64,000 bases of DNA from Terriglobia bacterium (GCA_965263045.1 CBDHGK010000041.1:5894002-5958001); one strand, 5' to 3'. Positions 6,275-44,737 are shown, counted from the first letter of the stretch. The notes: generated by a model not told the origin, from the letters alone. A program made the numbers and translations.

Positions 6275-7723
6275 ATGCGGACCCTGCCCAATGGTTTGAT
6301 TGCCCCCAATGGTGTGATCGCCTTTGTTAAGCGCGATTGTCCGACCTGCACCCTGGTCGAACCCGTACTGGAGCGAATCGGGAGTGCGCCCGGTTCATTG
6401 ACGGTTTATTCACAGGACGATCCGGACTTTCCAGCAAATGTCGCCAACGTGATTGACGACCGCAGTCTGGAACATTCCTATCTGTTTCAGATCGAGACGG
6501 TCCCGACCTTGCTCCGTGTTGAAAACGGTGGCGAGGTGGGCCGGACCCTTGGATGGCATCGCGCAGAGTGGGAGGCATTGAGCGGAATCGGCGGGCTCGG
6601 AGCAGGCCTGCCGGAAACCCAACCGGGATGCGGGTCGATAAGCGTGGAGCCCGGGACGGCCGAGCAGTTGGCCGTCCAATTTGGAGATGCCGTCCTGGCT
6701 GCCCGGAAAGTCGAGGTTGGGTCTTCAGAAGACGAAGTGGAGGCGTGCTTCGAACGTGGGTGGACCGACGGGCTGCCTGTGGTGCCCCCGACCGAAGGGA
6801 GGGTTGTGCGGATGCTGGAAGGCACCGGCCGTTCCCCCGATGAGGTGGTGGGAATCGTGCCACCCAACTACAACCGATGCACAGTTGAAAAGGTTGCGAT
6901 CAATGCAGTGATGGCCGGATGCAAGCCGGAGTATATGCCGGTAGTGCTGGCCGCTGTTGAAGCAGCGTTGATGGAAGAATTTGGAATGCACGGTCTGCTC
7001 GCAACCACGTTTTTTGCAGGACCGATGGTCGTCGTCAATGGACCAATTGCGCCCGAAATAGGGATGAATTCGGGGATCAACGTCCTGGGCCAGGGCAACC
7101 GGGCAAACGCCACCATTGGCCGAACGCTTCAACTGGTGATCCGCAACGTGGGCGGAGGGGTCCCGGGTGGGGTGGACCGGGCGATGCAGGGCAATCCGGG
7201 AAAGTATACGTTCTGTTTTGCGGAGCGGGCACAGGACTCGCCGTGGGATTCTCTGGCCCTCGAACGCGGATTCGCCCGGGGGGTATCCACCGTGTCGCTG
7301 TTCGCTGCCAGCGGGGTGACACCGATCATGGATACGGCATCCCGGGAGCCGGAGGGACTGTGCCGCTCCATTGCCGCCTGCCTCAAAGCCGTAGGGCACC
7401 CCAAGCATGCGAACGGTCCCGGCCCTGTGCTGGTGATTTCGCCCGAGCACACGCGTCGGTTCCAGGACGCGGGATGGTCGAAGGCCCGGTTTCGCGAGAT
7501 GCTGGATCGATGCCTGGAGGTTCCGGTCGCACAACTGGTTTCCGGGGCAGGGGGGATTGCGGAGGGGATTTCAGAAAAACGGGCGGCGGGTCGCGAGACG
7601 CTGCCCAAGTTTCGGCCGGGGACCTTACATATTGTACGGGCCGGTGGAGACGCAGGTTTGTTTTCATCGATCATTGGCAGTTGGGGAGGGAGTCAATCCG
7701 TTTCGAAGGAGATTGTGAAATGA
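6275..7723 (+). CDS. Thioredoxin-like domain protein (CPTC motif) with a large uncharacterised C-terminal domain
   Basis: N-terminal FVKRDCPTCTLVEPVLERIG thioredoxin-fold CxxC motif. The C-terminal domain is unrecognised. Stop overlaps the start of the UGSC selenoprotein (ATGA). Alternative start at 6245. Confidence 0.5.
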   Translation: MRTLPNGLIAPNGVIAFVKRDCPTCTLVEPVLERIGSAPGSLTVYSQDDPDFPANVANVIDDRSLEHSYLFQIETVPTLLRVENGGEVGRTLGWHRAEWEALSGIGGLGAGLPETQPGCGSISVEPGTAEQLAVQFGDAVLAARKVEVGSSEDEVEACFERGWTDGLPVVPPTEGRVVRMLEGTGRSPDEVVGIVPPNYNRCTVEKVAINAVMAGCKPEYMPVVLAAVEAALMEEFGMHGLLATTFFAGPMVVVNGPIAPEIGMNSGINVLGQGNRANATIGRTLQLVIRNVGGGVPGGVDRAMQGNPGKYTFCFAERAQDSPWDSLALERGFARGVSTVSLFAASGVTPIMDTASREPEGLCRSIAACLKAVGHPKHANGPGPVLVISPEHTRRFQDAGWSKARFREMLDRCLEVPVAQLVSGAGGIAEGISEKRAAGRETLPKFRPGTLHIVRAGGDAGLFSSIIGSWGGSQSVSKEIVK

Positions 7724-12427: not shown

Positions 12428-14060
12428 TGCGAAAAAAACCTTGGACAGATTCTTTGGAGAAGGAGGCATTTCAGATGAACGATTATACGCGCAAGAACAT
12501 GAGGAACCGCAAGCGGCGAATTGAGCGTCGGCTTGGGGATCGGAATTGGAAAGATCAGGCGAAGCCGATGCTGTCGGCGCGCAACATCCGGTACGAGATG
12601 GGAGACCGGATGAGGGGTCTGTCGGTGGGCGGCATCGGAATGATGCATCAGGTGGCGCGGCGGACCGGACTGATCGAAGCCATCGACAAGGACGTGCATG
12701 TGCTGAAGCGGCATCTGCCCTACCAGGAATCGGATCACGTGTTGAACATCGCCTACAACGCGTTGAGTGGGGGCACGTGTATGGAAGATATCGAACTGCG
12801 GCGCAATGACGAAGTGTATCTGGACGCGTTGGGAGCACAGCGGATTCCGGATCCGACCACGGCGGGAGACTTCTGCCGGCGATTTGAGGAAGACGACGTG
12901 GAGTCGCTGATGGACACGTTCAATAAAGTGCGGCTGAAAGTCTGGCGCCAGCAGCCCGATGCGTTTTTCGAGGAAGCGGTTCTGGAGGCGGACGGGACAT
13001 TGGCCCCAACCACCGGAGAATGCAAAGACGGGATGGACGTGGCCTACGACGGGACATGGGGTTATCACCCACTGTTGATTTCGCTGGCGAACACGGCCGA
13101 ACCGTTATACCTGGTGAACCGGAGCGGCAACCGGCCCTCGCATGAGGGAGCGGCCAAACGGTTCGATCAGGCAATCGCGTTGTGCCAGCGTGCGGGGTTC
13201 GATCAGATCCTGCTGCGCGGGGACACCGACTTCAGCCAGACCCGGTATTTGGATGGATGGGACGACCAGGGCGTGGGCTTCATCTTCGGCATCGACGCGA
13301 TGAAAAACCTGGTGGCCCGGGCCGACCAATTGGAGCCGGACTGCTGGGCGCGCCTGGAACGTCCCGCCAAGTACGAGGTAGCCAGCCAACCCCGCCAGCG
13401 TCCCGACAAGGTCAAGGAACGGATCGTTCGGGAGCGTGACTTTGAGAATATCCGCTTGCGGGGCGAGGATGTGGCCGAGTTTGCGTATCGGCCCGGAGCC
13501 TGCGATCGGGACTACCGCGTCGTTGTGGTGCGAAAGAATCTGTCGGTGGCCAAAGGGGAGCAGGTGTTGTTCGACGACATCCGGTACTTCTTCTACATTA
13601 CCAACCGTGCGGATCCTGCGGACCAGATCGTGATGCGTGCGAATCAACGGTGCAATCAAGAGAATCTTATTGAGCAGCTCAAGAACGGCGTACACGCCTT
13701 GGGGATGCCGGTCGGGGATCAGACCAGCAACTGGGCCTACATGGTGATGGCCTCACTGGCCTGGACACTGAAGGCGTGGTTTGCGTTATTGCTGCCCGAA
13801 ACCGGACGTTGGGGCCAGAAGTATCAGGCCGAGAAGCAGACCGTGCTACGCATGGAGTTCAAAACGTTCCTGAACGCCTTCATGCTCGTGCCTTGCCAGC
13901 TCGTGCGTACTGGTCGGCGCATCGTCTTCCGGCTGATGGCCTGGAACCCGTGGTTGCCAGTCTTGTTTCGTGCCGTGGATGTGTTGCGTCAACCTCTGCG
14001 ATGCTGACCCGATCATGGATCTGAGCCCGGGCGGTCGAGGTCCCGGTTTCTTTCAACCCT
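12428..14060 (+). mobile_element. IS1380-family insertion sequence (~1.63 kb)
   Basis: A single DDE transposase ORF is flanked by imperfect inverted repeats: left GCGAAAAAAACCTTGGAC (~12430) and right GTCCCGGTTTCTTTCAAC (~14043, reverse complement GTTGAAAGAAACCGGGAC). Confidence 0.5.
12475..14007 (+). CDS. IS1380-family DDE transposase
   Basis: Family-typical blocks NALSGGTCMEDIE, YDGTWGYHPL and LLRGDTDFS. Strong SD (GGAGAAGGAGG) upstream of the ATG at 12475. Confidence 0.8.
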   Translation: MNDYTRKNMRNRKRRIERRLGDRNWKDQAKPMLSARNIRYEMGDRMRGLSVGGIGMMHQVARRTGLIEAIDKDVHVLKRHLPYQESDHVLNIAYNALSGGTCMEDIELRRNDEVYLDALGAQRIPDPTTAGDFCRRFEEDDVESLMDTFNKVRLKVWRQQPDAFFEEAVLEADGTLAPTTGECKDGMDVAYDGTWGYHPLLISLANTAEPLYLVNRSGNRPSHEGAAKRFDQAIALCQRAGFDQILLRGDTDFSQTRYLDGWDDQGVGFIFGIDAMKNLVARADQLEPDCWARLERPAKYEVASQPRQRPDKVKERIVRERDFENIRLRGEDVAEFAYRPGACDRDYRVVVVRKNLSVAKGEQVLFDDIRYFFYITNRADPADQIVMRANQRCNQENLIEQLKNGVHALGMPVGDQTSNWAYMVMASLAWTLKAWFALLLPETGRWGQKYQAEKQTVLRMEFKTFLNAFMLVPCQLVRTGRRIVFRLMAWNPWLPVLFRAVDVLRQPLRC

Positions 14061-22035: not shown

Positions 22036-22270
22036 CTATGTCGGTGTGCGAAGACCGTTCGGCGCGAAAGCGGTCCACGTTCTGGTCCAGGGTGCCAATT
22101 GAACTTTCACGAAGTTGGCATAGACTGCGTAGAGCGCAACCATCCACTTGTGATTCTCGAACTTCTTCCTGAATCCCTTGGTCAGGCGAGTGAACCAACG
22201 CATGTGCATGCGCATGGTGAGGTTCTGGCGGTCTACATGTGACCTTGAAATTTGCTTGGGATCCGAGCTT
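22036..22270 (-). pseudogene. C-terminal remnant of an IS transposase (resembles the IS1595/ISXO2-like C-terminus)
   Basis: ...MRMHMRWFTRLTKGFRKKFENHKWMVALYAVYANFVKVQLAPWTRTWTAFAPNGL matches the conserved transposase C-terminal tail. Nothing transposase-like lies upstream of it. It sits in a lower-GC patch. Confidence 0.4.
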
Positions 22271-38697: not shown

Positions 38698-38757
38698 TGG
38701 TCCCTCTGAAATTCCTCGCCGGGCCGGGTACCGGAGAAATTTCTTTACCGGGAAGCC

Positions 38758-40101
38758 TTATCCGCCCAGCGGAGCACCCGCAGGGTGCAGGGTGCCCGCT
38801 CCAGACCCGTTGTTCAACACTGAGTCATAGAGTGCAACCAACCGGTTCGCCGAGCCCCGCACGGAATAGTGTGCGTGGACGCCCCGCAGTCCCTGTCGGC
38901 CGAAGGTATCCCGAAGTTCCCGATCGTTCCACAGTTGCCACAGACCCTCCGCCAGGCTGTCCGCATCGTCGGCTTCGACCAGCAATCCACCTCCGGTCTG
39001 TTCGACGATTTCCGTGAAGGCGCCCCGGCGGGGTTGAACAACCGGCACGCCGTTGGCCATGGCCTCGAGCAGGAACAGGCCTTTCGGCTCATCATAGGTT
39101 GCCGGGACTGAAAGGACGTCAAGTTCCTGGAGAAACGCAAGTTTTCCGTCGCGGTCCACGACACCCCGGTAGGAAAACTCGTTCGCGTAGCCGGCCCCGG
39201 CAAGGGTCTCTCGAACCTCGCTCATGTATTCGGCGTGCGCCGGTGCAGTGTAGCCTGCGACCTTAAGCCGTACCGAAGCATCCCCTGCCCGTTGCCTGAA
39301 CCGGATGTAGGCTTCGGCCAGGATATGCAAACCCTTTTCCGGTGCAACCCGCGCGAAATATCCGACGCGAAAATCAGCCTTCCTTTTCCGGGATGGGCGG
39401 CTTTCGGGATAACCCGCAAGGTTGATACCGAGAGGCACGACTCCGATGCGTTCCTCAGGGATTTCAAGGTACTCCGTCATGAAGCGGCGGCAGTACTCGC
39501 TGACGGCGACGAACCGGTCCACCGTTGAGATCTGTGCCCGGATCAGATCGAGTGCCTGTTCGCGATAGGGAGGCCGCAATCCGTCAATGAAGAGTTCTTC
39601 TCCCTGCAGCGTGCAACAGACAGGCCGATCGAATTTCTCGCGCAGCGGTTTGGCCAGCGCAATCAGCAGCGAGTTGGGCAGATTGATGATATCGGGCGTG
39701 GGCTGATGACCGATCCAGTCGGCGAGTTTCTCGAATTCCTTGCGCAGGGCGCTGTGTTCGCCTTCGAGCATGGAAATTGTGAGATCACCCAACAGTTGAG
39801 GGTCGTTCGAGACCGCGCGTCCCGCAACATGGTCGATTACCCAGGGGGAGTCCCACAGCCGGTCCAGGAATCGGGGAGTTTTCCGGAAAAACGGGAAATA
39901 CTGCTGCAGATAAACGCTGATACCCCCGAACAGGACATGTGGGCGGCTGGCGTTGGGTTCGTCCGTCCGTGTGGGCGTGTAGACCGGTACGAGAGTGCAG
40001 TCGTGCCCAAGCGATAGTAGTTCCCGTGCCAGTGCGTTGTCGCGGGCGCAACTCCCGCAATACATTCCCGCCGCGCCGGCTGTGATCGATAAAATCCGCA
40101 T
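38758..40101 (-). CDS. GT4-family glycosyltransferase
   Basis: GT-B fold with the EAMANGVPVV block. The N-terminus (AGMYCGSCARDN) is unusual. Confidence 0.8.
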   Translation of the reverse strand: MRILSITAGAAGMYCGSCARDNALARELLSLGHDCTLVPVYTPTRTDEPNASRPHVLFGGISVYLQQYFPFFRKTPRFLDRLWDSPWVIDHVAGRAVSNDPQLLGDLTISMLEGEHSALRKEFEKLADWIGHQPTPDIINLPNSLLIALAKPLREKFDRPVCCTLQGEELFIDGLRPPYREQALDLIRAQISTVDRFVAVSEYCRRFMTEYLEIPEERIGVVPLGINLAGYPESRPSRKRKADFRVGYFARVAPEKGLHILAEAYIRFRQRAGDASVRLKVAGYTAPAHAEYMSEVRETLAGAGYANEFSYRGVVDRDGKLAFLQELDVLSVPATYDEPKGLFLLEAMANGVPVVQPRRGAFTEIVEQTGGGLLVEADDADSLAEGLWQLWNDRELRDTFGRQGLRGVHAHYSVRGSANRLVALYDSVLNNGSGAGTLHPAGAPLGG

Positions 40102-40220
40102 TCACTCGGGTTCGTTCGTGGGCGATTGTTCTCGGTTAGAAGTGGATTGCTTGTTGGTTTCTTGATGGTTCGAAGAGATTATCTTATTCCTCTAAACGCC
40201 TCGGCCGCCGCCTCGTTGTT

Positions 40221-40355
40221 CACCCGCACCGTGGGACCGGTGCGGGTAATTTTGGGGGACTGCTTTAACCTTTCCTCAATCCCTATAGGCCCCGCCATCA
40301 CGATGATGGCGGGGGTCGCCGATCGTTCAGACAGGATGTCTGAAAGAACGATCGA
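40221..40355 (-). ncRNA. Copy 1 of a conserved three-hairpin structured element (candidate cis-regulatory leader RNA). Strand is inferred.
   Basis: H1 CCCGCACCG-TGGGAC-CGGTGCGGG, H2 CCCGCCATCA-CGA-TGATGGCGGG, H3 CGATCGTTC...GAACGATCG with an inner hairpin. Lies 119 nt upstream of the GT4 start on the minus strand. Confidence 0.5.
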
Positions 40356-40391
40356 GCGAAATCCCAAATCAGAAACTTTCAACCGAGCCCA

Positions 40392-41819
40392 TTAGCTGAA
40401 CGGCGCGTCCTGAAATGCGCGTGCGCGAAACAGAAAGTCGATGATGTTGCCCTCGTGGGGTTGCAGCCAGTTGAGCTTCGTCGTAGGCACCGGCCCCAGA
40501 TTCAGCCGGTCGATGTTCACGGCGTCGACGAGGCGACGGCGGAATCCGTCGTCGTTGGTGATCGCGCTGCACACCAATGTCGGTCCGATGGCCCGAATCA
40601 TTTCGGCTTCCGGGCATTCTACGACGGAGACAAAGGGGAACATGTATTCCTTGCCCGCGATCGCGGCTTCCGGTGACTCGGCGTGGATCACCGTTGGCAG
40701 CAAATAGTCGGCCAGGCCGGCATCGACCACACGCTTCCCGTCCCGATACATTGCAGTGACATCCCGGACGCCGGGGGCCTCGAGATCGGCGTCGATCGAT
40801 TGTGAAATCGATTCGGCCACTCCGGTGACCGTGAACGCGGCCAGGGCGGCTTCGGGATCTTCCGGGGGACGCGGGTGTATCCGGGCCAGTCGCCCGGCCA
40901 GGGCGTCGGCAATCTCGCCGCCATGCCGGCTCACCCATATCCCGGAAGCGTTGATGCAGCTGCGGCCACTGTTAATTGCCACGCTCTCCACCATCAGGTC
41001 CAGGTGTTGCTCCCAGTCGTCCACCTGGTCGTCACCTATGAGAATCTTCGAAAAGCCGGGTCCATGCGCCTGGACTCGCGGATCACTCCGGTAACGCGCC
41101 ACTGTGGCTTCGCCGCCGAATATGAGGCTGCGGCTCGAAGCGTCCAGCACGGCCGCGCCGACATCGGCTTCGCCCGGATAGATGGAAATGGATTCGGTCG
41201 GAATACCAGCATCAAAGAATGCGTTGGCCATTCGATAGGGCGTCCAGGGTTCCTGGGGGCCGGGCTTGAGGACGAGGCCGATCTGCAACGCGACGATGGG
41301 CAACCACAAGGCGTGGACACCGGGGGAGTTGGACGGCAGAACGACGCTGAGCACGGGGCTCTGGGCCTGGTAGCTGATCGGAACCCCACGCTCCTCGCCG
41401 AAACCCCGGTTAAGGACCTCGAGATCCAGTCCGCGCGTCAGGGATCGGAGGATGGCCGGCATTTCGGAAAGCACGAAGCGGTTCTTTTCCATGTTGGCCC
41501 GGCACATGTTTTCCGGTAACCCGGTGCTGGCCGACTGGGCCCGCACGAACTCCTCAGGCGTCTGCGCGCCATCGCCCATGGGAACCGTGGCGGACATGAA
41601 CGTCTCACCCGCACGCTGCACGCGGTCCATTAGTTCGTTGATCGGAATCGCCCGCAGCGCGTCGCGGGCGGTCTGAGCCTTGCGCATGTCCCGCTGGATC
41701 AGTCCGCTGTTGGCACGCCCGATCCGTGCGACGGGTTCACCGGTTGAGAAATGGACGACTTCGTCCATATCGAGGCTGTCGTAGGGTTGACCCCAGCGCA
41801 GTACGGGAATTGTAATCAT
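40392..41819 (-). CDS. Aldehyde dehydrogenase superfamily protein, LuxC-like acyl-CoA reductase candidate
   Basis: 475 aa. Catalytic Cys context NSGRSCINASG. Sits immediately downstream of the LuxE-like adenylating enzyme (3-nt gap). Confidence 0.65.
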   Translation of the reverse strand: MITIPVLRWGQPYDSLDMDEVVHFSTGEPVARIGRANSGLIQRDMRKAQTARDALRAIPINELMDRVQRAGETFMSATVPMGDGAQTPEEFVRAQSASTGLPENMCRANMEKNRFVLSEMPAILRSLTRGLDLEVLNRGFGEERGVPISYQAQSPVLSVVLPSNSPGVHALWLPIVALQIGLVLKPGPQEPWTPYRMANAFFDAGIPTESISIYPGEADVGAAVLDASSRSLIFGGEATVARYRSDPRVQAHGPGFSKILIGDDQVDDWEQHLDLMVESVAINSGRSCINASGIWVSRHGGEIADALAGRLARIHPRPPEDPEAALAAFTVTGVAESISQSIDADLEAPGVRDVTAMYRDGKRVVDAGLADYLLPTVIHAESPEAAIAGKEYMFPFVSVVECPEAEMIRAIGPTLVCSAITNDDGFRRRLVDAVNIDRLNLGPVPTTKLNWLQPHEGNIIDFLFRARAFQDAPFS

Positions 41820-41821
41820 TC

Positions 41822-42937
41822 TTAATACACGCCCACCGTCGTTGTCGAAACAAGCTCACGAAAGGGCCGGACGCCGCTCACCCCATCCCAGGGATAGAGT
41901 TCGCCGGGGGGCTCGCGCTCGCCCTCGTCCCGTTCAAGGAAACCGGGCATGAAGAACTCCTGCGTCAATGTCGTCACCCGGACCCGGCCGGTCTCGCCAT
42001 ATGCCACAACATGTCCGTCCTCATCGGGATCGACGACCTCGATTACGGCACGGGGTTGGGGGGCATGGTAGGTAATCTTGTAGCCGTTGTGGGGTCCGCT
42101 CGGAGCACTGGGGGCGAGACCCATCATCGTGTTTCCGTAGGTGGGCGTCATGTATGCGCCGTCGAGCAGTTCTTCGTGGGCGAATCGGTTCCACTGAGGT
42201 GTGAATTCAGTGCCCCCAGAGAAGATACCCGTAATGCCTTCCCTGTGAATCGACGTGTCCATCGATTCGAGCCGCAGGGCCAGGGCCTCGAGCAGTTTTG
42301 GCGTCGTGAACAGACAGCGGATGTCGTGCTTGGCCCGGAGGATGGTTACGGCCTGGTCGATCACATGGTTTTTGTACGCGTTCAGGTGATCGGTCCACCC
42401 CTTCTGGATCAGCTTAATCACCCAACGGGGATCCAGATCCACAAGAAAGCAGATGCCCCCACGGTATTGAGCCAGGTGCTCGACCGCCAGGCGCAGCCGG
42501 CGGGGACCGGAAGGGCCGACCATGAGCCAGTTCGACCCTCTCGGGAACGACTCTTCGGGCAGCGTATCGCTGAAGAGTTCGTAGTCGGTCCGAAAGTCCT
42601 CGCAGTTGATGCGCGTCTTGGGGATGCCGGTGGTACCACCTGTTTCGAAAACGAACACGGGTTTGTCGGCCAGGCCGCGGGGCACCCACCGGCTGACCGG
42701 ACCTCCGCGCAACCACTCGTCTTCGAACTCACCAAAACGGCTCAGATCGCTGAAACTTTGAATTTCTGAGAGAGGGTCCCAACCGAGTTCCGTGGCTCGC
42801 TCGAGCCAGAACGGAGTTCCGGTTTTCGGGTCGAAGTGCCAGGCGACAACCTCCCGCACCCAGGCGTCGAGTGCTGTACGGGCAGCTTCCACCCGGGCGG
42901 GCACGGCCTGAGCATTTCTGGAACCGGTGTCTGCCAT
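41822..42937 (-). CDS. Adenylate-forming enzyme, LuxE-like acyl-protein synthetase / PaaK-like ligase family
   Basis: FETGGTTGIPK AMP-binding P-loop. 371 aa from the MADTGSR... start, which matches LuxE/PaaK size. The longer ORF extends to 43021. Confidence 0.6.
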   Translation of the reverse strand: MADTGSRNAQAVPARVEAARTALDAWVREVVAWHFDPKTGTPFWLERATELGWDPLSEIQSFSDLSRFGEFEDEWLRGGPVSRWVPRGLADKPVFVFETGGTTGIPKTRINCEDFRTDYELFSDTLPEESFPRGSNWLMVGPSGPRRLRLAVEHLAQYRGGICFLVDLDPRWVIKLIQKGWTDHLNAYKNHVIDQAVTILRAKHDIRCLFTTPKLLEALALRLESMDTSIHREGITGIFSGGTEFTPQWNRFAHEELLDGAYMTPTYGNTMMGLAPSAPSGPHNGYKITYHAPQPRAVIEVVDPDEDGHVVAYGETGRVRVTTLTQEFFMPGFLERDEGEREPPGELYPWDGVSGVRPFRELVSTTTVGVY

Positions 42938-43108
42938 AGCCGAAACAGTATAGCGAATTGTTGGATGGGTGGGATGAGGGTTTGGGGGGCATGGTGCCGG
43001 GCGTTGGAGATGGTAGTGCATCGGTTCTAGATTGCAGGTGATATCCGAATGAATCCATCAACTTATTACCCTGACGCCTCAGCTCCGCCGCTTTAATATG
43101 AAAGCCGT

Positions 43109-43271
43109 CCACCCGCACCGTGGGACCGGTGCGGGTTCTATTGGGAGGGAACCAGGAATTCCGTCGTTCCTTATAGGTCTTGCCATCATGATGATGGCGA
43201 GGGTCGCTGGTCGTTCGGACCACGCGTGGCACGTGTGCCACGCGACAAAGATGGTCATCCGAAAGAACGAC
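43109..43271 (-). ncRNA. Copy 2 of the conserved three-hairpin structured element
   Basis: H1 is identical (27 nt). H2 is CTTGCCATCA-TGA-TGATGGCGAG, with compensatory changes relative to copy 1. H3 has a conserved outer stem and a different, larger inner hairpin. Lies 87 nt upstream of the LuxE-like ORF. Confidence 0.5.
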
Positions 43272-43423
43272 CGAGCGATTCCCTTCTATTCTATACGGCT
43301 GAGCAAATACCAACTGAGGCACGATCTTCCCTTTGGACAGGTTGTCGAGATGAATCCGGGTTCATTTATACTGCCCCTAAGCGACAGAAGCAGAGGAATT
43401 TGATGCAACCTTCAAAAAGTTGA

Positions 43424-44737
43424 ATGGCGATTCTGTGCCTGGTCCTGACGATGGCTCTGGCAGTGTCCGCTATTGCTCAATCGCAGGCAGACGCAGAACG
43501 TTACTGGGGGCAGTGGCGGGGACCCATGGCAACCGGGGTGTCGGAAACGGCCAATCCGCCGGTCCAATGGAGTGAGACGGAGAACATTCGCTGGAAAGTG
43601 GAGATTCCAGGCCGTGGCAGCAGCTCACCCGTTATCTGGGGCGATCGGGTATTCGTGACATCGGCTGTTCCCGTGGGCGTGGATGGCGACGCGGCGCACG
43701 AGACGCGGGGTGGTGTGGAGCCTCGCGAGGCCCATCGATTTGTCGTTCTGGCGCTCGACCGCAGCGACGGCAGCGTCGTCTGGGAAAGGACCCTCCGGGA
43801 ACAGGTTCCCCATGAAGCGGGGCACTTTCGAAACTCCAGCTGGGCATCCAGTTCTCCCGTCACCGACGGCGAGCACCTGTTCGTCTATTTTGAGTCTTTC
43901 GGTCTCTATGCCCTCGATCTGGACGGAAACCTGCTTTGGGAGAAAGACTTCGGTGACAAAGGCCAGCGGAACCAGTTCGGTGAGGGGAGCACACCGGCGT
44001 TGTACGGCAATCGCCTGGTCATTGTCTGGGACCATCAGGGAGGCCAGTCCTTTGTCCTCGCGGTCGACAAACACACGGGAGCGGAAATCTGGCGTGTCGG
44101 TCGCGATGAAATCGACTCCTGGGCCACGCCCCTTGTCGTGGACCACGGAGGAGGGCCACAGGTGATCGTCCCGGGAAGGAACAGCCTGCTCGGCTACGAT
44201 CTCAGTGACGGCAGTATTGTCTGGGAGAGTCCCGGTTTGACGATGAACCCGATTCCGTCACCCGTTGTCGAGGACGGGCTGCTGATCGCCATGAGCGGTT
44301 TTCGGGGCAACAACCTCAAGGCCATCCGGCTCGACGATGCCCGCGGTGATATCAGTGAGACCGGAGCGATTGTCTGGGAGTTGAATCGGGATACGCCGTA
44401 CGTACCCTCGCCGCTGCTCTATGACGGCATCGTCTACTTCCTGAAAACGAATTCGGGGATTCTGTTCGCGTACAACGCAGCAACGGGCGAACCGTTGTTC
44501 GAGAATCAGCGCCTTCAGGGCCTGCCCAACGTATTTTCGTCTCCGGTAGGCGCACAGGGCCGCGTGTACCTGACCGGCCGTGAAGGGAGCACGCTCGTTA
44601 TTCGTCGGGGTACCGATTTCGAAGTGATGGCGATGAACACTCTCGACGACGGTTTTGACGCGTCTCCGGCGCTGGTCGACAATGAAATATACCTACGCGG
44701 AACCCGCTACCTCTACAGCATTGGTGAGGAATTCTGA
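43424..44737 (+). CDS. PQQ-like beta-propeller repeat protein (BamB-like fold), secreted
   Basis: Signal peptide, WGQWRGPMATG motif and repeated blades. Paralogue of 33180..34532. Confidence 0.65.
   Translation: MAILCLVLTMALAVSAIAQSQADAERYWGQWRGPMATGVSETANPPVQWSETENIRWKVEIPGRGSSSPVIWGDRVFVTSAVPVGVDGDAAHETRGGVEPREAHRFVVLALDRSDGSVVWERTLREQVPHEAGHFRNSSWASSSPVTDGEHLFVYFESFGLYALDLDGNLLWEKDFGDKGQRNQFGEGSTPALYGNRLVIVWDHQGGQSFVLAVDKHTGAEIWRVGRDEIDSWATPLVVDHGGGPQVIVPGRNSLLGYDLSDGSIVWESPGLTMNPIPSPVVEDGLLIAMSGFRGNNLKAIRLDDARGDISETGAIVWELNRDTPYVPSPLLYDGIVYFLKTNSGILFAYNAATGEPLFENQRLQGLPNVFSSPVGAQGRVYLTGREGSTLVIRRGTDFEVMAMNTLDDGFDASPALVDNEIYLRGTRYLYSIGEEF

What the first reader, a model, noticed from the sequence alone, without database searches (positions are those of the whole stretch)
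40221..43271. Two copies of a conserved multi-hairpin element in the leaders of the GT4 gene and the LuxE/LuxC-like pair: candidate novel structured regulatory RNA
There are two elements in the same orientation, 40221-40355 and 43109-43271. Both share an identical 27-nt hairpin H1 (CACCCGCACCGTGGGACCGGTGCGGGT).

A second hairpin, H2, keeps its pairing through compensatory changes. Copy 1 is CCCGCCATCA/TGATGGCGGG and copy 2 is CTTGCCATCA/TGATGGCGAG, so C:G becomes T:A and C:G becomes T:G.

A third hairpin, H3, has a conserved outer stem, again with a compensatory A:T to G:C change. Its inner arm is a completely different hairpin of a different size in each copy. A variable stem-loop of this kind is typical of structured RNAs.

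Several conserved single-stranded blocks are also shared: TTGGG.GG, CCTTATAGG and GAGCGA.TCCC.

Read on the minus strand, copy 1 sits 119 nt upstream of the GT4 start. Copy 2 sits 87 nt upstream of the LuxE-like ORF. Copy 2 is also upstream of the plus-strand PQQ-propeller gene at 43424. I do not recognise either as a known riboswitch class.
Basis: seen in the sequence. Interest (0 to 1): 0.85.

Follow-up and report, generated by a model that had tools for sequence, protein, structure and literature searches.

The report
Decayed mobile repeat with conserved hairpins
The two "regulatory RNA" copies are old, immobilised members of a roughly 280-bp miniature transposon family (MITE) scattered beside unrelated genes in related Acidobacteriota, not a gene-specific riboswitch, although their multi-hairpin core has been kept by selection and probably acts when transcribed within operons.

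Summary
Both copies exist, H1 is identical in the two, and H2 and H3 covary. No Rfam family matches.

The unit is larger than described, about 273-323 nt. It belongs to a dispersed family:
- At least 22 copies lie in one Terriglobia MAG, and 13 lie on marine metagenome contigs.
- Canonical copies have 21-24-bp terminal inverted repeats and CTAG ends.
- They lie beside functionally unrelated genes.
- The 5' end often sits exactly on the TAG stop codon of a co-oriented upstream gene.

This is MITE architecture, not a riboswitch.

The five-hairpin core is not junk:
- 46 pairs are 95% paired, and 12 pairs show changes on both sides.
- At the orthologous LuxC-GT4 site in three genomes the core is about 89% identical or more. 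Fourfold-degenerate sites in the flanking genes are 41-59% identical, and the transposon arms have decayed.
- Copies between same-direction genes are almost always in the sense orientation.

Best reading: this is an undescribed MITE family whose structured core is retained. It most likely works as a co-transcribed intercistronic or 3'-UTR RNA module, comparable to ERIC, Correia or REP elements. That function is inferred, not shown.

Novelty: new member of a known kind. Interest is moderate.

The parts
40122..40396 (-). Copy 1, the full element (about 275 nt). It is a decayed MITE lying between the LuxC-like stop codon and the GT4 start.
   Evidence: nhmmer with the full-length family profile gives E = 1.5e-73. 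The boundaries come from the family alignment and the inverted-repeat scan.
40375..40396 (-). Copy 1, remnant of the 5' terminal inverted repeat (sense strand CTAATGGGCTCGGTTGAAAGT). It contains the LuxC-like stop codon TAA at 40392-40394.
   Evidence: The arms 40122-40143 and 40375-40396 are 22 nt long and 73% complementary. The remnant aligns with the family consensus CTAGTGTCCTGAGTCAGAAGT.
40122..40143 (-). Copy 1, remnant of the 3' terminal inverted repeat. It ends about 22 nt upstream of the GT4 start codon at 40101.
40181..40363 (-). Copy 1, structured core. In sense order it holds H3, H2, the variable H4, H1, and then the H5 and AGAGnAAnAAGAT segment.
   Evidence: The covariance model R1 scores 197.7 bits, E = 2.6e-50.
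40316..40359 (-). Copy 1, hairpin H3 (outer stem TCGC/GCGA plus CGATCGTTC/GAACGATCG, with a short inner stem).
40290..40314 (-). Copy 1, hairpin H2 (CCCCGCCATCA / TGATGGCGGGG).
   Evidence: Four of its 10 pairs show changes on both sides across the family.
40221..40247 (-). Copy 1, hairpin H1 (10-bp GC-rich stem). On the plus (antisense) strand it is followed by TAATTTT and looks like a terminator.
43003..43325 (-). Copy 2, approximate full extent of the element. The arms have decayed and no terminal inverted repeat is detectable. It lies in the divergent spacer between the LuxE-like and PQQ-propeller genes.
   Evidence: nhmmer gives E = 2.6e-61. No terminal inverted repeat was found.
43060..43282 (-). 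Copy 2, structured core. H3 carries a long inner insertion, and there is an extra 13-nt hairpin after H1 (subfamily B).
   Evidence: The covariance model R1 scores 160.7 bits, E = 1.6e-40.
43110..43136 (-). Copy 2, hairpin H1. It is identical to H1 of copy 1.
43179..43202 (-). Copy 2, hairpin H2.
43204..43278 (-). Copy 2, hairpin H3 with the long inner hairpin.
40392..41819 (-). LuxC-like acyl-CoA reductase gene (Pfam Aldedh). Its stop codon abuts the 5' end of copy 1.
41822..42937 (-). LuxE-like adenylate-forming enzyme gene, with a probable true start at 42937.
38758..40101 (-). GT4 glycosyltransferase gene, immediately downstream of copy 1.

Best explanation

An intact member is about 283 bp long. 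It has 21-24-bp terminal inverted repeats, (C)TAGTGTCCTGAGTCAGAAGT ... ACTTCTGACTCAGGACACTAG, and a non-coding core of five hairpins.

**How it moves (inferred).** A DDE transposase supplied in trans, of the IS5 or IS630 type, inserts it at CTAG/TA targets. In a GC-rich genome these are very often the TAG stop codon of a gene. Copies therefore end up directly behind one gene and often in front of the next gene of an operon.

**What happens after insertion.** The arms decay, but the roughly 190-nt core is held by purifying selection with compensatory changes.

**How the core works (inferred).** The core is transcribed in the sense direction, which is the window's minus strand, together with the flanking genes. 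Its stack of long GC-rich hairpins then acts as an intercistronic or 3'-UTR RNA module, either as a barrier to exonucleases or as a processing site. This would uncouple the expression of neighbouring genes, as reported for ERIC, Correia and REP elements. I put this mechanism at about 40%.

**In this window.** Copy 1 lies between the LuxC-like gene and GT4. Copy 2 lies in front of LuxE.

**Shown versus inferred.**
- Shown: family membership, terminal inverted repeats, dispersal, unrelated gene contexts, orientation bias, covariation, and conservation at orthologous sites.
- Inferred: the transposition mechanism, transcription of the element, and the RNA-level function.
For: **Dispersed family**
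- A core-pattern scan of 185,579 genomes found at least 22 copies in one Terriglobia MAG (CBDCKF01). One more lies in CBDCLE01 and one on a 3.8-kb contig of a MAG (L009).
- 13 further copies lie on JGI metagenome contigs.

**MITE architecture**
- The alignment with flanks shows terminal inverted repeats and CTAG ends.
- The consensus folds with a 24-bp terminal stem.
- Inverted repeats: L013 21 nt at 90%, L051 38 nt at 76%, window copy 1 22 nt at 73%.
- 13 of 25 copies start with NTAG and 12 of 25 end with CTAG.
- Open reading frames are not consistent in strand or frame between copies.

**Gene context**
- Flanking genes are functionally unrelated: amidohydrolase, CobN, ThyX, RmlC, DnaJ, GcvT, Era, TctB/C, methylmalonyl-CoA mutase and others.
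- In about 10 copies the upstream co-oriented ORF ends exactly in the element's first TAG.
- Between tandem genes the ratio is 11 sense to 2 antisense. All Pfam-verified tandem cases are sense.

**Mobility**
- L074 has a copy between GT4 and the ABC gene that the window and L002 lack.
- More distant orthologous operons lack all copies.

**Structure**
- 46 pairs are 95% paired, and 12 pairs have changes on both sides. No shuffle of 500 reaches the observed values. Slid controls give 30-46% paired.
- There are additional compensatory H1 variants: GCAGCG/CGCTGC and GCGCCG/CGGCGC.

**Selection at orthologous sites**
- At the LuxC-GT4 site, the window versus L002 shows the core 89% identical. The arms are 37-55% identical, and fourfold sites of flanking genes are 41-51% identical.
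- Window versus L074 fourfold sites are 51-59% identical, and the three-way alignment of the H3-H2 region is nearly invariant.
- Orthologues are more alike than the two paralogues in the window (core 78%). This argues against concerted evolution.

**Strand**
- The sense strand folds better in 32 of 36 copies.

**Precedent**
- MITEs at the 3' ends of genes are co-transcribed and modulate mRNA stability (review PMC3184786).
Against: - No autonomous element with the same terminal inverted repeats was found. The only IS seen next to a copy (L023) has different repeats.
- The target-site duplication cannot be resolved, because CTAG is palindromic and no clean empty site could be aligned.
- In several copies the 5' terminal 12 nt differ from the consensus, so the arms are not complementary (L036, L057, L043).
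- Wobble counts do not pick a strand. G:U versus A:C is 33 versus 23 cells, spread over 14 versus 14 positions. The constraint could therefore be on DNA hairpins.
- There is no transcript evidence. No canonical promoter or sense-strand terminator was found in the element.
- The copies used for conservation profiles were selected with a core pattern, which inflates core conservation at about 23 positions.
- The copies are related to one another, so the statistics overstate independence.
- One orthologue (L001) has lost the core of the LuxC-GT4 copy to an inserted island. The core is therefore dispensable there.
Confidence: 0.72

Rival explanations
1. It is a purely selfish MITE with no host function. 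On this view the core is conserved for one of three reasons. The active master copies may need it for transposition. Hairpins may be repaired by intrastrand template switching (quasi-palindrome correction). Or dispersed copies may homogenise one another by gene conversion.
For: - The MITE architecture and dispersal fit.
- Wobble pairs and A:C mismatches are equally frequent, so there is no RNA strand signature.
- A hairpin-loop inversion in L062 points to DNA-level hairpin events.
- L001 lost the core at the LuxC-GT4 site without losing the operon.
Against: - The orthologous copies have decayed arms, so they can no longer transpose. Yet their cores are about 89% identical while neutral sites are 41-59% identical.
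- Unpaired core segments are also conserved (GATTTCG; AGAGnAAnAAGATnATC). Hairpin repair cannot explain that.
- Paralogues within one genome are less alike than orthologues, and the two L074 copies carry different H1 variants. This argues against gene conversion.
- A strong sense-orientation bias exists between tandem genes.
Confidence: 0.2
2. It is a gene-specific cis-regulatory leader RNA (riboswitch-like) controlling the GT4 and LuxE/LuxC genes.
For: - It is a structured element with covariation and no known family.
- Both window copies lie upstream of, and in the sense direction relative to, genes of one operon.
- The element is retained at the LuxC-GT4 site in three genomes.
Against: - The same element lies next to dozens of unrelated genes.
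- It usually starts at the stop codon of the preceding gene, and 7 copies lie between convergent genes.
- It has transposon-type terminal repeats.
- Most LuxE/LuxC/GT4 operons have no copy (L005-L008, L073, L075).
- The helices are long and nearly perfect, without the irregular conserved junctions typical of aptamers.
Confidence: 0.04
3. It is a mobile DNA-level regulatory cassette. An outward-facing promoter in the conserved 3' segment (…GCCGAGGCGTnnAGAGTAAnAAGATAATC, with GATAAT/TAAGAT as the -10 element) would drive the downstream gene. H1 would act as a terminator for antisense transcription.
For: - The AGAGTAAnAAGATnATC segment is unpaired yet conserved among orthologues and across the family.
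- The sense orientation points towards the downstream gene in all tandem contexts and in front of LuxE.
- H1 followed by a T-rich tail is terminator-like on the antisense strand.
- Correia elements are a precedent for MITE-borne promoters (PMC3184786).
Against: - The sigma-70 consensus scan found no promoter inside the element.
- The candidate -35 region is poor.
- 7 copies face a convergent gene, where a promoter would produce antisense RNA.
- This model does not explain why the H3/H2 hairpins are the most conserved part.
- The U-tract after H1 has only 3-4 U.
Confidence: 0.12
4. It is a family of independently transcribed small RNA genes (trans-acting sRNAs) that happens to be repeated.
For: - The fold is stable and conserved.
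- Multi-copy sRNA families exist in other bacteria (my own knowledge).
Against: - No promoter or sense-strand terminator signals were found.
- Many copies abut a stop codon with no spacer and lie 5-40 nt from the next start codon.
- Terminal inverted repeats and CTAG ends are unexplained by this model.
Confidence: 0.03

Closest known systems
ERIC / IRU elements of Enterobacteriaceae (127-bp MITE-like imperfect palindromes)
   Same: - Both are non-coding repeats with terminal inverted repeats and TA-containing flanks.
- Both lie in transcribed intergenic regions, often just 3' of genes, and are reported to be co-transcribed and to affect mRNA stability (PMC3184786).
- From my own knowledge of Wilson & Sharp 2006, ERIC copies at orthologous sites evolve more slowly than their surroundings. 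The same is seen here.
   Different: - There is no sequence similarity.
- This element is twice as long.
- Its core is five separate hairpins rather than one long imperfect palindrome.
- It is found in Acidobacteriota.
- It shows a strong orientation bias.
- Insertion at TAG stop codons is prominent.
Correia elements (CREE/NEMIS) of Neisseria
   Same: Both are MITEs with terminal inverted repeats and a TA target. Both are dispersed near many unrelated genes and co-transcribed, with effects on transcript processing and promoters carried by the element (PMC3184786).
   Different: - Correia elements are 104-157 bp long, and their function lies mainly in the terminal repeats (an RNase III stem, promoter boxes, an IHF site).
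- In this family the arms decay and the internal core is the conserved part.
bcr1-type repeats of the Bacillus cereus group and pneumococcal RUP/BOX repeats
   Same: These are small, non-coding, MITE-like repeats predicted to form conserved RNA secondary structures. They are listed among bacterial intergenic repeats in PMC3184786. The detail on their structure is from my own knowledge.
   Different: They come from unrelated sequences and hosts, and have different targets (for example TTTAT for bcr1). None has this five-hairpin core.
REP/BIME elements (REPtrons)
   Same: Both are GC-rich hairpins just downstream of genes. REP elements can protect upstream mRNA and sit inside operons, which is the functional analogy I propose.
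   Different: REPs are 20-40-nt single palindromes with a GTAG/CGTC head and are mobilised by RAYT (Y1) transposases. They have no long terminal inverted repeats, so this element is not a member.
IS5-family and IS630-family insertion sequences (candidate source of the transposase)
   Same: Both families are known to target CTAG/TA (my own knowledge). In L023 an IS5-family IS sits in the MITE's terminal CTAG and is itself flanked by CTAG.
   Different: That IS has unrelated terminal repeats (GGCGTGTTAACAC). No transposase with the MITE's repeats was found.

Membership tests
MITE (miniature inverted-repeat transposable element) | Terminal inverted repeats | tested here: met
   - The consensus forms a 24-bp terminal stem.
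- L013 has 21 nt at 90% complementarity and L051 has 38 nt at 76%. Window copy 1 has 22 nt at 73%.
- The repeats are decayed in copy 2.
MITE (miniature inverted-repeat transposable element) | Small size and no coding capacity | tested here: met
   - Copies are 260-323 nt long.
- Subfamilies differ by a 13-nt indel and by H3 inserts of roughly 23 to 33 nt.
- The longest open frames differ in strand and frame between copies.
MITE (miniature inverted-repeat transposable element) | Many dispersed copies within a genome, beside unrelated genes | tested here: met
   At least 22 copies lie on two contigs of MAG CBDCKF01. Their neighbours are functionally unrelated.
MITE (miniature inverted-repeat transposable element) | Target-site duplication | tested here: inconclusive
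   - Both ends carry (C)TAG.
- This is compatible with a TA or a CTAG duplication.
- The palindromic target and the lack of an alignable empty site prevent a decision.
MITE (miniature inverted-repeat transposable element) | Presence/absence polymorphism at orthologous loci | tested here: met
   - L074 has a copy between GT4 and the ABC gene, where the window has a 60-nt spacer.
- L002 and L073 lack the copy upstream of LuxE.
- L005-L008 and L075 lack all copies.
MITE (miniature inverted-repeat transposable element) | An autonomous partner IS with the same terminal repeats | tested here: not met
   - No matching terminal repeat was found outside known copies in any fetched locus, apart from one orphan repeat in L030.
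- The IS in L023 has different ends.
- Whole genomes could not be scanned, so this is absence in a limited sample.
Riboswitch / gene-specific cis-regulatory leader | Association with a functionally coherent set of downstream genes | tested here: not met
   The neighbours span unrelated functions.
Riboswitch / gene-specific cis-regulatory leader | Location in the 5' UTR of the regulated gene, with an expression platform | tested here: not met
   - The 5' end coincides with the upstream gene's stop codon in about 10 copies.
- 7 copies lie between convergent genes.
- There is no sense-strand terminator or sequestered RBS.
Riboswitch / gene-specific cis-regulatory leader | Conserved secondary structure with covariation | tested here: met
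   46 pairs are 95% paired, and 12 pairs have changes on both sides.
Any Rfam 15 family | Covariance-model match at or near the gathering score | tested here: not met
   - The window has no match at gathering thresholds.
- There is nothing at E <= 10 over the two copies.
- The only hit is a chance-level PrrB/RsmZ match (20 bits against a gathering score of 44) in one metagenome copy.
REP/BIME (RAYT-mobilised) | A 20-40-nt single palindrome with a GTAG/CGTC head and no long terminal repeats | tested here: not met
   The unit is about 283 nt long, with 21-24-bp terminal repeats and five hairpins.
IS200/IS605-derived PATE | Subterminal hairpins without terminal inverted repeats, with insertion 3' of a short target and no duplication | tested here: not met
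   Terminal inverted repeats are present and the ends are symmetrical CTAG.
Co-transcribed regulatory MITE (ERIC/Correia-like function) | Transcription with the flanking genes and an effect on mRNA processing or stability | not testable with these tools
   Support is indirect only: orientation bias, a better sense-strand fold and selection on the core.

The most novel reading that the evidence does not exclude
The roughly 190-nt five-hairpin core is a genuinely functional structured RNA, a new class of cis-acting operon-internal element. It might act as a processing or stability insulator, or as a protein-binding platform. It uses a MITE as its vehicle: transposition seeds it behind stop codons across the genome, and the host then keeps useful copies under purifying selection long after the transposon ends have decayed. 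That retention is seen at the LuxC-GT4 site in three genomes whose synonymous sites are nearly saturated.
Probability: 0.3. Interest if true: 0.6.

Novelty: new member of a known kind. Interest (0 to 1): 0.38.

Why it matters
- **Annotation.** It removes a false lead. This is not a new riboswitch for a lipid or glycosyltransferase operon.
- **A new family.** It documents a repeat family I found no description of, in poorly studied, mostly uncultured Acidobacteriota. Neither Rfam nor two full-text literature searches on MITEs returned it.
- **Exaptation of a mobile element.** The transposon arms decay at or beyond the neutral rate. The hairpin core stays about 89% identical across genomes whose fourfold sites are only 41-59% identical.
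- **If the core works as RNA.** It would be an example of regulatory structure spread by transposition into stop codons. That mechanism could rewire operon expression in a whole lineage.
- **Metagenomics.** The family is a useful marker for assembly and binning of these genomes. One copy sits on a 3.8-kb contig of a MAG labelled Gammaproteobacteria.

Tried and rejected
- **Rfam.** I searched at gathering thresholds and at permissive E-values, on the window and on four canonical copies. Nothing relevant was found.
- **BLAST against plasmids.** blastn of the consensus against 72,556 plasmids gave no match.
- **Autonomous parent.** An exact IUPAC search and a fuzzy search (up to 4 mismatches) for the terminal repeat in all 75 loci and the window found only known copies and one orphan in L030. 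The IS5-family IS adjacent to the L023 copy was rejected as the parent because its terminal repeats differ.
- **Empty site and target-site duplication.** I compared the GT4-ABC spacers of the window, L002 and L074. They are too diverged to align, so the duplication stays unresolved.
- **Strand assignment from wobble pairs.** G:U versus A:C mismatch counts were not decisive. A comparison of folding energies favours the sense strand, but the copies are not independent.
- **Promoter and terminator scans.** There is no sigma-70-like promoter inside the element. The only terminator-like site within the core hairpins is H1 on the antisense strand, with a weak T-tract.
- **Small ORF in the core.** Rejected, because indels and inconsistent frames rule out a conserved reading frame.
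- **Composite transposon.** I considered that the two window copies form a composite transposon around LuxE/LuxC. This was rejected because the same operon order exists in relatives without any copy.
- **Concerted evolution.** Considered as the cause of core conservation. It is disfavoured because orthologues are more alike than paralogues within one genome.
- **Further copies.** A covariance-model search found no further or more diverged copies in the window or in the element-free orthologous loci.

Full report
**1.

The window contains two same-orientation copies of a multi-hairpin element.
- The 27-nt hairpin H1 occurs exactly twice, at 40221-40247 and 43110-43136. No match appeared in 100 shuffles of the window.
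The inner arm of H3 is a different, longer hairpin in copy 2.
- Both regions fold much better than shuffled sequence on either strand, with z-scores from -5.5 to -7.9.
- Nothing in Rfam 15 matches, either at gathering thresholds or at E <= 10.

**2. Gene context**

The genes lie on the minus strand. In order they are a LuxE-like adenylating enzyme, a LuxC-like reductase (Pfam Aldedh), a GT4 glycosyltransferase, and then an ABC ATPase and a MacB/FtsX-type permease.
- Copy 1 lies between the LuxC-like gene and GT4.
- Copy 2 lies in the divergent spacer between LuxE and a PQQ-propeller gene.
- LuxE homologues are 369-372 aa long, so the true start is probably 42937 rather than 43021.
- The operon is conserved at about 80% amino-acid identity across thousands of Acidobacteriota sequences.

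**3. Related loci show two old insertion sites**
- The closest relatives carry a copy at the same places. L001 has one upstream of LuxE. L002/L003 and L074 have one between LuxC and GT4.
- More distant operons have none (L005-L008, L073, L075).

**4. The element is a dispersed repeat with transposon ends**

A scan of one genome per species (185,579 genomes) with a core pattern returned 51 loci.
- nhmmer confirmed 22 or more true copies in a single Terriglobia MAG (CBDCKF01). One more lies in another Terriglobia MAG, and one lies on a 3.8-kb contig binned as Gammaproteobacteria.
- A JGI metagenome scan added 13 copies from a handful of samples.

- It ends in inverted repeats: (C)TAGTGTCCTGAGTCAGAAGT ... 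ACTTCTGACTCAGGACACTAG.
- The consensus closes with a 24-bp terminal stem.
- The inverted-repeat scan recovers arms of 21-38 nt in canonical copies. In window copy 1 it finds a 22-nt, 73% complementary remnant at 40122-40143 and 40375-40396. Copy 2 has lost its terminal repeats.
- 13 of 25 copies begin with NTAG and 12 of 25 end with CTAG.
- There is no conserved reading frame.

Small size, terminal inverted repeats, dispersal, no coding capacity and a palindromic TA-containing target together make up the anatomy of a MITE.

**5. Contexts rule out a gene-specific leader**

Genes flanking the Terriglobia copies are functionally unrelated. They include an amidohydrolase, a carboxylesterase, CobN, ThyX, RmlC, a 5'-3' exonuclease, GcvT, DnaJ, a tannase, CoaE, TctC/TctB, a rhomboid protease, methylmalonyl-CoA mutase and Era.

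The position of the copies is nevertheless not random.
- In about 10 copies, including window copy 1 and L002, a co-oriented upstream ORF ends exactly in the element's first TAG or TAA.
- Between tandem genes the element is in the sense orientation 11 times and antisense twice. Every Pfam-verified tandem case is sense.
- Seven copies lie between convergent genes.
- Only the LuxE copy lies between divergent genes.

Landing on stop codons is what a CTAG/TA-targeting transposon would do in a GC-rich genome. In L023 an IS5-family IS has inserted into the MITE's own terminal CTAG and is itself flanked by CTAG.

The orientation bias needs selection or a mechanism. One candidate is that H1 followed by a T-rich tail looks like a terminator on the antisense strand. 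Antisense copies inside operons would then be polar. The U-tract is weak, however.

**6. Mobility**
- L074 carries an extra copy between GT4 and the ABC gene. The window has only a 60-nt spacer there, and L002 has none.
- In L001 the LuxC-GT4 copy was disrupted by a 4.4-kb island of IS and toxin-antitoxin genes, leaving only its 3' part.
- I could not find an autonomous element with matching ends in the sequence available.
- I could not align an empty site, so the target-site duplication (TA or CTAG) is unresolved.

**7. The core is constrained**

On 36 cores, a structure of 46 pairs (H3, H2, the base of H4, H1 and the H5 closing stem) is 95% paired.
- 12 pairs have changes on both sides. No shuffle of 500 reaches the observed values, and slid controls give 30-46% paired.
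- Further H1 variants keep the pairing: GCAGCG/CGCTGC and GCGCCG/CGGCGC.
- Across the Terriglobia copies the core columns are 0.92-0.95 conserved, against about 0.7 for the terminal repeats. The caveat is that 23 core positions were fixed by the search pattern.

The strongest evidence comes from orthologous sites.
- Between the window and L002, fourfold-degenerate sites of LuxE, LuxC and GT4 are only 41-51% identical. The H3-H2-junction core is 89% identical and the arms are 37-55% identical.
- Between the window and L074, fourfold sites are 51-59% identical, and the three-way alignment is almost invariant through H3 and H2.
- For copy 2 versus L001, the H3-H2-junction core is 89% and the H1+H5 region 94% identical, against 66-69% at fourfold sites.
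- Orthologues are more alike than the two paralogues in the window (78%), and the two L074 copies carry different H1 variants. Gene conversion is therefore not a good explanation.

The core has thus been held by purifying selection after the ends stopped being functional.

**8. Which strand, and what does it do?**
- Wobble versus A:C mismatch counts do not decide the strand: 33 versus 23 cells, at 14 versus 14 positions.
- The sense strand, which is the window's minus strand, folds better in 32 of 36 copies, by 4.6 kcal/mol on average. The copies are not independent.
- Together with the orientation bias, I favour transcription in the sense direction as part of the flanking mRNAs.
- No promoter and no sense-strand terminator consensus lies inside the element.

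My best mechanistic guess, at about 40%, is a co-transcribed intercistronic or 3'-UTR hairpin module that blocks exonucleases or directs processing. It would thereby uncouple the expression of neighbouring genes. MITEs at the 3' ends of genes are reported to be co-transcribed and to change mRNA stability (review PMC3184786).

The alternatives are:
- an outward promoter in the conserved unpaired AGAGTAAnAAGATAATC segment;
- a purely DNA-level or selfish explanation.

**9. Comparison with known systems**

The element works like ERIC, Correia and bcr1-type MITEs and is analogous to REP/BIME. It shares no sequence with any of them.
- It differs from Correia in that the internal core, not the terminal repeats, is the conserved part.
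- It fails the defining features of REP (a short single palindrome mobilised by RAYT), of IS200/605-derived PATEs, of riboswitches and of every Rfam family.

I file it as a new member of a known kind, an undescribed MITE family of Acidobacteriota with a selected structured core.

**10. Verdict**
The element is structured, conserved and unannotated, but it is a mobile repeat rather than a dedicated regulatory RNA of these genes.
- Interest is moderate (0.38).
- The most novel reading still open is that the core is a new functional RNA class spread by a transposon vehicle. I put that at about 0.3.

Noticed in passing
L023:3065-3880: An IS5-family insertion sequence of about 815 bp sits exactly in the terminal CTAG of a MITE copy and is flanked by CTAG on both sides. 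It has an ORF1 with a DUF4096 domain, an A8 run suggesting programmed frameshifting, and terminal repeats GGCGTGTTAACAC.
   Followed up: partly
L001:8684-13188: A 4.4-kb island has replaced most of the LuxC-GT4 copy of the element. It carries IS3-type transposase genes (HTH_Tnp_1, rve) and three toxin-antitoxin gene sets (a RelB-like antitoxin, PemK/MazE, HigB/HTH). Only the 3' part of the element remains, at 13089-13188.
   Followed up: partly
L074:4364-4647: An extra copy of the element lies between GT4 and the ABC ATPase gene. It is absent from the window, which has a 60-nt spacer at 38698-38757, and from L002. This is a presence/absence polymorphism.
   Followed up: yes
L062 versus L071/L066/L069 (H1 loop): The H1 loop in L062 (GAGGAAC) is the reverse complement of the loop in the other three copies (GTTCCTC), with the same stem. 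This is a hairpin-loop inversion, which suggests DNA-level hairpin events.
   Followed up: no
L041:4691-4900 and 6580-6885: A heavily decayed copy lies upstream of a ThyX-domain gene and an intact copy lies downstream of it. L017, L038 and L063 also carry two copies each: within 8 kb in L017 and L038, and adjacent on a 1.5-kb contig in L063. I did not test whether this pairing exceeds chance.
   Followed up: no
window:41822-43021: The listed LuxE-like ORF (399 aa) is probably too long. Homologues are 369-372 aa, which places the start at ATG 42937.
   Followed up: partly
window:34546-43021 and loci L002, L005-L008, L074, L075: A five-gene cluster is conserved in order, and its LuxE-like protein at about 80% amino-acid identity, across many Acidobacteriota. 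It comprises a LuxE-like gene, a LuxC-like gene, GT4, an ABC ATPase and a MacB/FtsX permease. Its product is not obvious; it may be an exported glycolipid.
   Followed up: no
window:57798-57965: Three tandem units of 54 nt, 62-72% identical to a related stretch at 22040-22099. They are probably a coding repeat.
   Followed up: no
L009 (JAPUJX010000610.1, 3.8 kb): A canonical copy of this Acidobacteriota repeat lies on a short contig of a MAG labelled Gammaproteobacteria. This may be a binning error.
   Followed up: no
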